The notes: a model not told the origin generated them from the letters alone. A stretch of DNA of 64,000 nt from Escherichia coli (GCF_048403405.1 NZ_CP183129.1); one strand, 5' to 3'; shown: positions 20,266 to 22,439, numbered from the stretch's first letter. A program made the numbers and translations.

Positions 20266-21615
20266 TTGGCGGGTTTTAACATCAAACATTGGTTTGCAGA
20301 TGGCGCGTTTCGCACCATTATTCGCAATAGCGCCTGGTTAGGCTCCAGTAATGTCGTGAGCGCCTTGCTGGGTTTGTTGGCGCTCTCGTGTGCCGGTAAA
20401 GGGATGACGCCCGCCATGTTTGGCGTACTGGTGATTGTGCAATCGTACGCCAAGTCGATCAGCGATTTTATTAAGTTTCAGACATGGCAGCTGGTGGTTC
20501 AGTACGGAACACCAGCATTAACCAACAATAATCCGCAGCAATTTCGCAATGTCGTCTCTTTTTCCTTCTCGCTGGATATCGTCAGCGGCGCGGTGGCGAT
20601 TGTCGGCGGCATTGCCTTACTCCCTTTTCTTTCCCATTCATTAGGTCTGGATGACCAAAGCTTTTGGCTGGCAGCGCTGTATTGCACGCTCATTCCTTCA
20701 ATGGCTTCCTCCACGCCGACCGGCATTCTGCGTGCGGTAGATCGCTTCGATCTAATTGCTGTACAGCAAGCGACGAAACCTTTTCTGCGCGCAGCGGGGA
20801 GCGTCGTAGCCTGGTATTTTGACTTTGGTTTTGCGGGTTTTGTTATTGCCTGGTACGTGTCGAATCTGGTTGGCGGCACCATGTACTGGTGGTTTGCCGC
20901 GCGCGAATTACGCCGCAGAAATATCCATAACGCCTTCAAATTGAATCTGTTTGAGTCTGCCCGACACATTAAAGGCGCGTGGAGTTTTGTCTGGTCAACC
21001 AACATTGCCCACTCCATCTGGTCGGCACGTAACTCGTGCAGCACAGTGTTGGTGGGGATCGTGTTAGGACCCGCTGCCGCCGGGTTATTTAAAATCGCCA
21101 TGACATTCTTCGACGCCGCCGGAACGCCAGCGGGTTTACTGGGTAAAAGTTTTTACCCAGAGGTGATGCGTTTAGATCCGCGCACCACCAGACCGTGGTT
21201 GTTAGGCGTGAAGTCAGGTTTACTGGCGGGCGGAATCGGTATTCTGGTGGCGCTCGCGGTGTTGATCGTCGGCAAGCCGCTCATTTCGCTGGTGTTTGGC
21301 GTTAAGTATCTCGAAGCGTATGACCTGATTCAGGTGATGCTGGGCGCAATTGTGATCTCGATGCTGGGCTTCCCTCAGGAGTCATTGCTATTGATGGCGG
21401 GAAAACAGCGCGCTTTTCTCGTGGCGCAAACCATCGCCTCAATCGGCTACATCGTATTGCTGTTCATGTTCTGTCATCTGTTTGGCGTGCTGGGGGCTGC
21501 ATTTGCTTACTTCGGTGGGCAATGTCTGGATGTGGTGTTCTCGCTAATTCCGACCTTAAAGGCATTTTTTCAGCGCCATTCCTTGCTTTATAACTCAGCC
21601 GGAGAGAAATCCTGA
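20266..21615 (+). CDS. yghQ: polysaccharide/lipid flippase-like polytopic membrane protein (MOP/Wzx-type), YghQ
   Basis: 449-aa hydrophobic ORF; start is a TTG at 20266 in the ORF track, so the true start is uncertain. Confidence 0.8.
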   Translation: MAGFNIKHWFADGAFRTIIRNSAWLGSSNVVSALLGLLALSCAGKGMTPAMFGVLVIVQSYAKSISDFIKFQTWQLVVQYGTPALTNNNPQQFRNVVSFSFSLDIVSGAVAIVGGIALLPFLSHSLGLDDQSFWLAALYCTLIPSMASSTPTGILRAVDRFDLIAVQQATKPFLRAAGSVVAWYFDFGFAGFVIAWYVSNLVGGTMYWWFAARELRRRNIHNAFKLNLFESARHIKGAWSFVWSTNIAHSIWSARNSCSTVLVGIVLGPAAAGLFKIAMTFFDAAGTPAGLLGKSFYPEVMRLDPRTTRPWLLGVKSGLLAGGIGILVALAVLIVGKPLISLVFGVKYLEAYDLIQVMLGAIVISMLGFPQESLLLMAGKQRAFLVAQTIASIGYIVLLFMFCHLFGVLGAAFAYFGGQCLDVVFSLIPTLKAFFQRHSLLYNSAGEKS

Positions 21616-22439
21616 TGATGAGAAAATATTTCCCGCTTGAGGCGAGCGAGCGTCTATTTGTTGCGATTGAAGAAGATGATGTTGTTGATGCACAGGTCAG
21701 TTTGCCGCCGACTATCGCACTAAGTTGTACCATCGAAATCATCCATGATAATTACGCGTTATGCCTGCAATTCTGGCTCAATGGCGTCAATCGCCAGGAG
21801 TTACTGCGTTTAATATGCAAACAGGCCAAAGGCGATGAGCTGACTGCTGATGAGCGCAAACAATTTAAATACATGCGAGCGCGCTACAAGCACCTGCGTT
21901 TTGCGCAACGGCTGTATTTAAAAAAGCATCAGGCCGGATTTTTATTCGGCAAAACGACCGTTTTTTTGGGGCGTTTTCAGGACGGCTTTCGTAACGGTAA
22001 GAAAAATATTGTGTCGTATTACGGCAACCTGTTACGGGTTTATTTAAGCTCTCCGGTCTGGTCGTTGGTGAACTATTCATTACGCCATAGCCAGTTAGAA
22101 AGCGTAAGCGGTTTTATTGCCTATCGGCAAAAGCAAATGCATACCCTGAAAGAGATAATTGCCAAATCGCGACTAACTGGCAGGGAATTTCATGATGTGC
22201 GAAAAATCATCAGCCAGCAGGTTTCTTATTACGACACCCTAAGATCGCTTGATCCTGAAAATAAAGAAGCGTTACAGATTTCCCGCTTCCTCGCCGCCAT
22301 TAATGGCCTGATGGGGGATAAACATGACGACATGGTGGCGGATGATATGGAAAACCGCCATTCGTATGATGCACCGATGGCGCTGGATAGCGATATTCGT
22401 CAGCGCTTAGAACTGCTGATTTCGCGTTTTCCGCTATAA
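21615..22439 (+). CDS. hypothetical protein, no recognisable motif
   Basis: 274-aa ORF; ATG overlaps yghQ stop (TGATG) with ggagag RBS, implying translational coupling. Confidence 0.7.
   Translation: MMRKYFPLEASERLFVAIEEDDVVDAQVSLPPTIALSCTIEIIHDNYALCLQFWLNGVNRQELLRLICKQAKGDELTADERKQFKYMRARYKHLRFAQRLYLKKHQAGFLFGKTTVFLGRFQDGFRNGKKNIVSYYGNLLRVYLSSPVWSLVNYSLRHSQLESVSGFIAYRQKQMHTLKEIIAKSRLTGREFHDVRKIISQQVSYYDTLRSLDPENKEALQISRFLAAINGLMGDKHDDMVADDMENRHSYDAPMALDSDIRQRLELLISRFPL

What the first reader, a model, noticed from the sequence alone, without database searches (positions are those of the whole stretch)
21615..22439. Uncharacterised 274-aa gene translationally coupled to yghQ
The ATG overlaps the yghQ stop codon (TGATG) and is preceded by a ggagag RBS, so it is almost certainly co-expressed with the flippase-like YghQ and the downstream YtfJ/LptFG-like genes. 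The protein has no motif I can recognise and is predicted soluble.
Basis: seen in the sequence. Interest (0 to 1): 0.5.

Follow-up and report, generated by a model that had tools for sequence, protein, structure and literature searches.

The report
CHAD-like protein in E. coli sphingolipid locus
The unnamed 274-aa gene is real and strongly conserved: it encodes a soluble protein with the fold of a polyphosphate-binding CHAD domain, and across many sphingolipid-making bacteria it is read together with a lipid flippase and two or three kinases, so it is an unstudied candidate part of bacterial sphingolipid modification or export.

Summary
ORF 21615-22439 (+) encodes 274 aa. Its ATG overlaps the yghQ stop codon (TGATG) and sits 8 nt downstream of GGAGAG. 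It is intact in 4127 of 5426 complete E. coli genomes, has dN/dS of 0.05-0.09, and is absent from K-12 because of an IS5-associated deletion.

The gene lies in the E. coli sphingolipid locus: yghT/S/R kinases, yghQ MOP flippase, this gene, YtfJ-like, LptF2/G2, then spt-acpR-cerR-aasR and yghO. Across 79 loci from Enterobacterales, Xanthomonadales, Sphingomonadales, Acetobacteraceae and a betaproteobacterium, the constant core is 2-3 thymidylate-kinase-like P-loop kinases, the flippase and this gene. The flippase stop and this gene's start overlap in 50 of 67 loci.

Best reading (inferred): a cytoplasmic phosphate- or anion-binding accessory subunit of a kinase-flippase module acting on ceramide lipids. 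The ligand is unknown. I found no literature on it. It is a new variant of a known kind, of moderate to high interest.

The parts
21615..22439 (+). The 274-aa gene (RefSeq 'hypothetical protein' WP_000984962.1; 'Ybl138' in some UniProt entries). It encodes a divergent CHAD-fold protein that is soluble and basic (pI 9.2).
21601..21606 (+). GGAGAG Shine-Dalgarno-like sequence, 8 nt upstream of the ATG and inside the 3' end of yghQ.
21613..21617 (+). TGATG stop/start overlap (yghQ TGA, then the ATG of the 274-aa gene). An overlap of this kind is conserved in 50 of 67 related loci.
21867..21899 (+). Codons K85-R95. First conserved basic helix motif, K85-x2-R88-x3-K92-x2-R95 (R88 is invariant in 88 family representatives).
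21969..21983 (+). Codons G119-D123. First G-x-x-Q-D motif (D123 invariant).
22191..22205 (+). Codons H193-K197. Second conserved basic helix motif, H193-x2-R196-K197 (H193 and R196 invariant). It resembles the polyphosphate-contacting H-x2-R-x3-R of canonical CHADs.
22314..22328 (+). Codons G234-D238. Second G-x-x-H-D motif, pseudo-symmetric to G119-D123.
20266..21615 (+). yghQ, full length (449 aa). A MOP-superfamily flippase-like membrane protein, immediately upstream and translationally coupled. It is truncated in K-12.
19462..20220 (+). yghR, a thymidylate-kinase-like P-loop kinase paralogue.
18717..19430 (+). [not shown]
17851..18543 (-). yghT, the third thymidylate-kinase-like P-loop kinase paralogue, transcribed divergently.
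22448..23011 (+). YtfJ-family protein with a signal peptide, 8 nt downstream of the 274-aa gene.
23042..24112 (+). LptF paralogue (LptF2-type).
24109..25188 (+). LptG paralogue (LptG2-type).
25186..25220 (.). Strong GC-rich hairpin (16 pairs) between the convergent lptG2 and spt genes. It is a probable bidirectional terminator marking the end of the operon.
25223..26395 (-). spt, serine palmitoyltransferase.
26395..26643 (-). acpR, the specialised acyl carrier protein.
26675..27589 (-). NAD-dependent epimerase/dehydratase-family reductase (cerR / 'epi' type).
27586..29334 (-). aasR, fatty acyl-AMP ligase / acyl-AcpR synthetase. RefSeq places the start at window position 29307.
29679..30821 (+). 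yghO, counterpart of the Caulobacter N-acyltransferase CC_1154 (bCerS). Coordinates were transferred from the RefSeq annotation of the identical strain.

Best explanation
The gene encodes a cytoplasmic, all-helical protein of the CHAD fold: two four-helix bundles carrying conserved Lys, Arg and His residues. It belongs to a conserved operon module made of two or three thymidylate-kinase-like P-loop kinases (YghR/S/T), a MOP-family flippase (YghQ) and this protein. That module travels with sphingolipid (ceramide) biosynthesis genes. I propose that the protein is the phosphate- or anion-binding accessory subunit of the module. At the inner face of the inner membrane it would bind a phosphate-rich ligand. 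The ligand could be the phosphorylated head group that the kinases put on a ceramide-based lipid, or a short polyphosphate or nucleotide phosphate chain. The protein would thereby couple or gate head-group phosphorylation and flipping by YghQ, before LptF2G2 extracts the lipid for transport to the outer membrane. Shown here: the fold, the conserved basic motifs, purifying selection, the conserved gene order and stop/start overlap, and restriction of the yghQ-linked subfamily to lineages that carry spt in the locus or are reported sphingolipid producers. Inferred, not shown: ligand binding, the identity of the ligand, physical contact with YghQ or the kinases, and the lipid substrate.
Against: The E. 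coli protein itself does not reach any Pfam or NCBIfam threshold. A family profile finds no CHAD chain in the PDB by sequence, and hhalign against E. coli YgiF finds nothing, so homology to CHAD rests on the fold plus weak sequence bridges. I could not inspect the model coordinates, so I have not verified that the conserved basic residues line a cavity. Canonical CHADs bind long polyphosphate and not other phosphate ligands, and the usual CHAD partners (TTM/CYTH, PPK, PPX) are absent here. No experiment shows which lipid E. coli makes from this locus. Some homologues are orphans away from yghQ (Pluralibacter L017 and L023, L059). The most distant relatives carry signal peptides and have unrelated neighbours. 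In alpha- and betaproteobacterial loci glycosyltransferases are adjacent, so the substrate could be a glycolipid or a polyprenyl-linked glycan rather than a phosphorylated ceramide.
Confidence: 0.5

Rival explanations
1. It is a conventional polyphosphate-binding CHAD protein ('phosin'). It would sense or recruit cytoplasmic polyphosphate and so tie sphingolipid modification or export to phosphate and energy status. It would not touch the lipid itself.
For: CHAD fold with conserved basic residues and high pI. Canonical CHADs bind polyphosphate with nM-uM affinity through HxxRxxxR-type residues. Stand-alone CHADs typically sit in operons with phosphate-transferring enzymes, and here the operon has three kinases.
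Confidence: 0.2
2. It is a ligand-independent structural partner, either a chaperone or stabiliser of the YghQ flippase or a scaffold that assembles the three kinases at the membrane. The conserved charged residues would serve protein-protein or membrane contacts.
For: Stop/start overlap with yghQ across four orders suggests a fixed production ratio. Tandem duplicates (Luteibacter L038 and L047) and a fused tandem duplicate (P0124) fit an oligomeric scaffold. CtCHAD is a dimer.
Against: The invariant residues are His, Arg, Lys and Asp, arranged as in the ligand-binding motifs of CHADs. That pattern is more typical of a small-ligand site than of a protein interface. Orphan copies exist without yghQ nearby.
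Confidence: 0.15
3. It is an enzyme, for example a His/Asp-dependent phosphotransferase or phosphohydrolase acting on the head group. It would use H105, D123, H193, H237 and D238, possibly with a metal.
For: Invariant or near-invariant His and Asp residues. CHAD histidines were originally proposed as metal chelators or phospho-acceptors. PptA (6rn5) has been described as both polyphosphate-binding and metal-binding (this last point is from my own recollection of the literature).
Against: No CHAD has shown catalysis, and metal sites are not conserved in solved CHADs. The G-x-x-[QH]-D motif has a counterpart in canonical CHADs, where it appears structural (from memory of the Pfam profile, not tested here). 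There is no fold match to known four-helix-bundle enzymes above the generic level.
Confidence: 0.1
4. It is a spurious or decaying ORF with no function.
For: No family assignment in Pfam or NCBIfam. It is absent from about 24% of complete E. coli genomes, including K-12. Its G+C content is somewhat lower than its neighbours' (45.7% against 49-53%).
Against: dN/dS is 0.05-0.09 with no stops. About 200 clusters at 50% identity span several orders. The AF2 model has pLDDT 97. Synteny and coupling are conserved.
Confidence: 0.01

Closest known systems
CHAD domains (Pfam PF05235): RcCHAD 6qv5, CtCHAD 3e0s, Streptomyces PptA 6rn5, and the C-terminal domain of E. coli YgiF 5a61
   Different: Sequence identity is only 10-17%. 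The E. coli protein does not hit the Pfam model. There is an extra conserved N-terminal segment (L14, D22, P31, W54). The genomic partners are a MOP flippase, thymidylate-kinase-like kinases and sphingolipid genes, not TTM/CYTH, PPK or PPX. Polyphosphate binding is untested.
Caulobacter crescentus sphingolipid locus CC_1152-CC_1168 (ceramide synthesis, CpgABC head-group enzymes, putative flippase CC_1166, LptF2/G2/C2)
   Same: The ceramide core genes are the same (spt, acpR, cerR, aasR, N-acyltransferase). Both loci hold LptF and LptG paralogues and a polysaccharide-type flippase candidate.
   Different: The Caulobacter locus has no CHAD-like gene and no YghR/S/T-type kinases. Its head-group enzymes are a DAG-kinase-like ceramide kinase, a Tam41-like protein, a CDP-alcohol transferase and nucleotidyltransferases. 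The E. coli and sphingomonad module therefore looks like a different head-group or export solution.
YghQ / MOP-superfamily flippases (Wzx, MurJ type)
   Same: The coupled upstream gene is a weak MOP-family match. From general knowledge, MOP flippases move lipid-linked, pyrophosphate-containing substrates. That would fit a phosphate-recognising cytoplasmic partner.
   Different: I know of no MOP flippase described with a dedicated soluble CHAD-type partner. YghQ's substrate is unknown.

Membership tests
CHAD domain (PF05235) | Two four-helix bundles related by pseudo-twofold symmetry | tested here: met
   [not shown]
CHAD domain (PF05235) | Significant match to the family's sequence profile | tested here: inconclusive
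   The E. coli protein has no CHAD hit at E<=10. Of 88 family representatives, 3 hit at E<=1e-3 and 22 at E<=0.1. The kinase-fused relative P0251 carries a 'faint' CHAD hit. A PDB profile search and hhalign against YgiF were negative.
CHAD domain (PF05235) | Conserved basic residues (H-x2-R-x3-R type) forming the ligand-binding surface | tested here: inconclusive
   The motifs K85xxR88xxxK92xxR95 and H193xxR196K197 are conserved, and family pI is 9.3. The comparison with CtCHAD H253/R256/R260 comes from the paper. Their position in the 3-D model could not be inspected.
CHAD domain (PF05235) | Binds inorganic polyphosphate | not testable with these tools
   This needs purified protein and binding assays.
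CHAD domain (PF05235) | Fusion to, or operon with, polyphosphate-metabolising enzymes (TTM/CYTH, PPK, PPX) | tested here: not met
   [not shown]
Proteobacterial sphingolipid (ceramide) gene locus | Physical linkage to spt, acpR, cerR, aasR and the N-acyltransferase gene | tested here: met
   In the window all five lie within 8.4 kb downstream. The same holds in the Enterobacterales loci, and in Xanthomonadales the gene shares a gene string with spt. In Sphingomonadales and Acetobacteraceae spt is not within the 20-kb loci, and the literature reports these genes as scattered there.
Proteobacterial sphingolipid (ceramide) gene locus | Loss of the gene alters sphingolipid synthesis or transport | not testable with these tools
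   No mutant or lipidomic data were found.
TPR repeat protein (SEED label 'Conserved hypothetical TPR repeat protein, clustered with yghQ') | Tandem 34-residue helix-turn-helix TPR motifs | tested here: not met
   No TPR family appears in Pfam for the protein or for any of 88 relatives. The structural matches are CHAD and four-helix bundles, not TPR solenoids.
Lpt machinery component (LptB ATPase or LptC) | ABC ATPase motifs (LptB), or a membrane-anchored beta-jellyroll (LptC) | tested here: not met
   There is no NCBIfam or Pfam hit. The model is all-alpha, with no beta strands of three or more residues and no transmembrane segment.

The most novel reading that the evidence does not exclude
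The three thymidylate-kinase-like enzymes might build a phosphoanhydride chain (di- or tri-phosphate) on a ceramide-based lipid. Thymidylate kinases add a phosphate onto an existing phosphate. The CHAD-like protein would then be a repurposed phosphate-chain clamp that recognises this head group and hands the lipid to the MOP flippase YghQ. MOP flippases normally handle pyrophosphate-linked lipids. This would mean a previously unknown class of bacterial lipid (ceramide oligophosphate, possibly a carrier for glycans) and the first lipid-directed CHAD domain.
Probability: 0.12. Interest if true: 0.85.

Novelty: new variant of a known kind. Interest (0 to 1): 0.58.

Why it matters
Bacterial sphingolipid synthesis has only recently been worked out. 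The flippase step and the head-group chemistry outside Caulobacter remain open; a 2024 paper states that no flippase had been identified. This gene marks a conserved five-gene module: three kinases, a MOP flippase and a CHAD-like protein. The module is present in about three quarters of complete E. coli genomes, in many Enterobacterales including Serratia, Citrobacter and Hafnia, and in Sphingomonadales and acetic-acid bacteria. It is invisible in K-12 because IS5 removed it. It offers directly testable candidates for sphingolipid head-group modification and flipping in a genetically easy host such as BL21. It would also extend the CHAD fold from polyphosphate granules to membrane-lipid biology. 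If the lipid reaches the E. coli surface, it could matter for outer-membrane properties, antimicrobial-peptide sensitivity and host recognition.

Tried and rejected
1. Direct family searches with the E. coli protein found nothing useful. Pfam gave only a chance hit. NCBIfam, PADLOC, PHROGs and a family profile against PDB sequences gave nothing.
4. I looked for a counterpart in the Caulobacter sphingolipid cluster. None of CC_1152-CC_1168 is CHAD-like according to the authors' domain analysis.
5. The SEED 'TPR repeat' label is rejected.
6. Rfam found no structured RNA at 18000-26000. Promoter-like and terminator-like sites are not enriched over shuffles, apart from the hairpin at 25186-25220.
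7. The context of distant, signal-peptide-bearing relatives was uninformative, with short contigs or unrelated neighbours.
8. The first attempt to scan genomes with the 88-sequence alignment failed because no stretch was conserved enough. A 23-sequence alignment worked.
9. Literature searches by gene names and accessions (ybl138, yghQ, yghRST, WP_000984962, ECD tags) found no functional study.

Full report
**1. The observation**

The window is E. coli chromosome and is 100% identical over this gene to strain U1. The ORF at 21615-22439 (+) encodes 274 aa. The upstream gene, yghQ (20266-21615), ends with TGA at 21613-21615. The ATG at 21615-21617 shares the A, giving TGATG. GGAGAG lies at 21601-21606, 8 nt upstream. 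RefSeq annotates this same CDS as 'hypothetical protein' WP_000984962.1.

The ORF is clearly a gene.
- It covers at least 80% of the query in 4127 of 5426 complete E. coli genomes.
- Intact orthologues of about 274 aa exist across Enterobacterales.
- dN/dS against seven Escherichia-clade and Pseudocitrobacter orthologues is 0.05-0.09, with no stops.
- No segment is hydrophobic enough for a membrane helix.

K-12 MG1655 lacks the gene. IS5 sits between yghO and a truncated yghQ (355 aa instead of 449 aa), and everything in between is gone. That explains why the gene has no b-number and no literature.

**2. The locus**

The order in the window is as follows.

| Gene | Strand | Assignment |
|---|---|---|
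| pitB | + | phosphate transporter |
| yghT | - | P-loop kinase paralogue |
| yghS, yghR | + | P-loop kinase paralogues |
| yghQ | + | MOP-flippase-like |
| the 274-aa gene | + | this finding |
| YtfJ-family gene | + | TIGR01626, 216 bits |
| LptF paralogue | + | TIGR04407, 318 bits |
| LptG paralogue | + | TIGR04408, 303 bits |
| spt | - | serine palmitoyltransferase, 596 bits |
| acyl carrier protein gene | - | acpR |
| SDR reductase gene | - | cerR / 'epi' type |
| fatty acyl-AMP ligase gene | - | aasR |
| yghO | + | N-acyltransferase counterpart |

A 16-pair hairpin separates lptG from the convergent spt.

This is the E. coli sphingolipid locus. The acpR, aasR and spt products of E. coli BL21 have been shown to make 3-oxo-sphinganine, and yghO is listed as the counterpart of the Caulobacter N-acyltransferase CC_1154 (PMC9386255). 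LptF2 and LptG2 paralogues in the Caulobacter sphingolipid locus are genetically tied to sphingolipid transport and bind LptB (bioRxiv 10.64898/2026.04.12.717747). None of the papers I could search mentions the 274-aa gene.

**3. What the protein is**

The single sequence matches nothing in Pfam, NCBIfam, PADLOC or PHROGs. An exhaustive search of 1.84 billion representative proteins found a modest family: 204 clusters at E<=1e-3 and 141 at E<=1e-10.

An 88-sequence alignment (A1) shows R88, D123, H193 and R196 invariant. K92, R95, H105, G119, K197, N230, G234, H237, D238 and Y251 are nearly invariant. The family is basic, with a median pI of 9.3.

After these there is a drop to generic four-helix bundles that align only about 105 residues.

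Scanning each family member against Pfam gives CHAD (PF05235) for 3 of 88 at E<=1e-3 and for 22 of 88 at E<=0.1. No other family recurs. In AFDB50 many homologues are already auto-labelled 'CHAD domain-containing protein'. These include Sphingomonas, Acetobacter, Komagataeibacter, Zymomonas, Commensalibacter and Pseudomonas veronii. The E. coli entries are 'Uncharacterized' or 'Ybl138'.

The conserved residues form two pseudo-symmetric sets:
- K85-x2-R88-x3-K92-x2-R95 followed by G119-x2-Q122-D123.
- H193-x2-R196-K197 followed by G234-x2-H237-D238.

A profile alignment of the N-half against the C-half puts them in this register, but only weakly. In solved CHADs the polyphosphate chain is held by H-x2-R-x3-R residues (CtCHAD H253/R256/R260; SsCHAD H29/R32/R36) and other basic residues around a central cavity (PMC6537752).

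I therefore regard the protein as a divergent CHAD-fold family. Homology is supported by the fold plus weak sequence bridges. The match to the Pfam profile is not met by the E. coli protein itself.

**4. Conserved context**

A scan of one genome per species returned 151 relatives, of which 79 loci were kept. They come from:
- Enterobacterales: Escherichia, Pseudocitrobacter, Hafnia, Serratia, Citrobacter, Pantoea, Erwinia, Sodalis, Mangrovibacter, Rosenbergiella, Tatumella, Rahnella and Klebsiella indica.
- Xanthomonadales: Luteibacter, Rhodanobacter and Dyella.
- Sphingomonadales.
- Acetobacteraceae.
- One betaproteobacterium.

These lineages either carry spt in the locus or are reported sphingolipid producers.

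tblastn with the window's proteins shows what stays constant: a YghQ-type flippase immediately upstream, plus two or three YghR/S/T paralogues. The spt-acpR-cerR-aasR block is adjacent in Enterobacterales. In Xanthomonadales it lies in the same gene string (yghS-yghR-aasR-cerR-acpR-spt-yghQ-gene). In Sphingomonadales the compact unit is kinase-kinase-(kinase)-yghQ-gene. YtfJ and LptF2G2 are linked only in Enterobacterales.

The flippase stop and this gene's start overlap in 50 of 67 loci and are 0-20 nt apart in 14 more. Translational coupling is therefore an ancient, maintained feature, which argues for a fixed production ratio and probably a joint function.

Three further observations bear on the family.
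- Distant relatives in uncultured bacteria are fused, as two tandem copies, to an APH-type kinase domain. This is a second, independent link between the domain and kinases.
- Tandem duplicates occur in Luteibacter, and a fused duplicate exists (P0124).
- In alpha- and betaproteobacterial loci a GT4 glycosyltransferase is often adjacent. In Acetobacter and Carnimonas the neighbour is an ArnC-like GT2.

**5. Mechanism**

Shown: a CHAD fold, a conserved basic His/Arg/Lys constellation, a predicted cytoplasmic soluble protein, obligatory pairing with a MOP flippase and thymidylate-kinase-like kinases, and association with sphingolipid genes.

Inferred: the protein binds a phosphate-rich ligand and acts as an accessory subunit of a kinase-flippase module. 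That module would modify a ceramide-based lipid at the inner leaflet and flip it, upstream of extraction by LptF2G2.

I put about 0.5 on this general statement. The ligand is open. It could be a phosphorylated lipid head group, a short polyphosphate, or a nucleotide phosphate chain.

The rivals are:
- A conventional polyphosphate sensor (0.2).
- A ligand-independent scaffold or chaperone (0.15).
- An enzyme (0.1).
- A non-gene (about 0.01).

The most novel reading I cannot exclude is that the kinases build a phosphoanhydride chain on ceramide, that the CHAD-like protein recognises it, and that the lipid then goes to a flippase of a family that normally moves pyrophosphate-linked lipids (about 0.12).

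**6. Comparison with what is known**

The closest known kind is the CHAD domain. The fold and motif logic are the same. The sequence family, the extra conserved N-terminal segment and, above all, the genomic partners differ: no TTM/CYTH, PPK or PPX.

The Caulobacter sphingolipid locus shares the ceramide core, LptF2G2 and a flippase candidate. It uses unrelated head-group enzymes and has no CHAD-like gene or YghR/S/T-type kinases.

I file the gene as a new variant of a known kind. It is not an established member of PF05235 by profile score, but it very probably works with a CHAD-type binding surface.

**7. Verdict**

It is a conserved, unstudied CHAD-like component of a kinase-flippase module attached to bacterial sphingolipid synthesis, widespread in E. 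coli but deleted in K-12. The mechanism remains inferential. Interest is 0.58.

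Noticed in passing
window 17851-20220 (yghT, yghS, yghR): Three paralogous P-loop proteins share 33-44% identity with one another. 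RefSeq names two of them 'dTMP kinase', yet they score far below the dTMP-kinase cutoff (25-31 bits against 83). All keep the catalytic motifs and carry an insertion of about 40 residues (YghS 50-90, low pLDDT, partly hydrophobic) that thymidylate kinases lack. They are probably kinases for a different substrate, possibly a lipid, so the RefSeq name is likely wrong.
   Followed up: partly
window 25186-25220: A 16-pair GC-rich hairpin lies exactly between the convergent lptG paralogue and spt. It looks like a bidirectional terminator for the two operons.
   Followed up: no
L089 (K-12 MG1655 3130146-3132408) compared with window 20266-30821: In K-12 an IS5 element replaces the 3' end of yghQ, the 274-aa gene, the ytfJ-like gene, lptF2, lptG2, spt, acpR, cerR and aasR. 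K-12 therefore lacks the sphingolipid locus that about 76% of complete E. coli genomes carry.
   Followed up: yes
L085 (E. coli SW07091, NZ_CM129863.1 749404-752879): This is a different natural deletion. The 274-aa gene is cut after about 93-144 nt and joined close to spt, so ytfJ-like, lptF2 and lptG2 are lost. aasR is also truncated and abuts a gspD fragment. The locus seems prone to independent decay in some lineages.
   Followed up: no
L038 10001-11766 and L047 9152-10816 (Luteibacter); protein P0124: Luteibacter has tandem duplicated copies of the CHAD-like gene. P0124 (564 aa) is a single polypeptide containing two copies. Both hint that the protein works as a dimer.
   Followed up: no
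L082 10001-12931 (MAG GCA_043757515.1); proteins P0251, P0269, P0259: These proteins of about 980 aa have a signal-peptide-like N-terminus, an APH/choline-kinase-type domain (HGDLKPxN) and two tandem copies of the CHAD-like domain. Many other distant relatives also have signal peptides, so part of the wider family is probably extracytoplasmic.
   Followed up: partly
L053 11721-12806 (-), L072 6433-7512 (-), L074 10810-11997 (+); L072 12406-13194 (-), L052 8814-9569 (+): In Sphingobium, Acetobacter and a betaproteobacterium a GT4 glycosyltransferase sits next to the kinase-flippase-CHAD-like module; in the betaproteobacterium it overlaps the CHAD-like gene's stop. Acetobacter and Carnimonas have an ArnC-like GT2, and Acetobacter also has a 503-aa membrane protein with no family hit. 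The module's product may be glycosylated in these lineages.
   Followed up: partly
window 21615-22439: The gene's G+C content (45.7%) is lower than that of its operon neighbours (49-53%) and of the window as a whole (48.4%).
   Followed up: no
L017 and L023 (Pluralibacter), L059 (Sphingomonas formosensis, second copy): These are orphan copies of the CHAD-like gene with no yghQ or kinase genes within 10 kb. The Pluralibacter protein has an N-terminal extension of about 30 aa.
   Followed up: no
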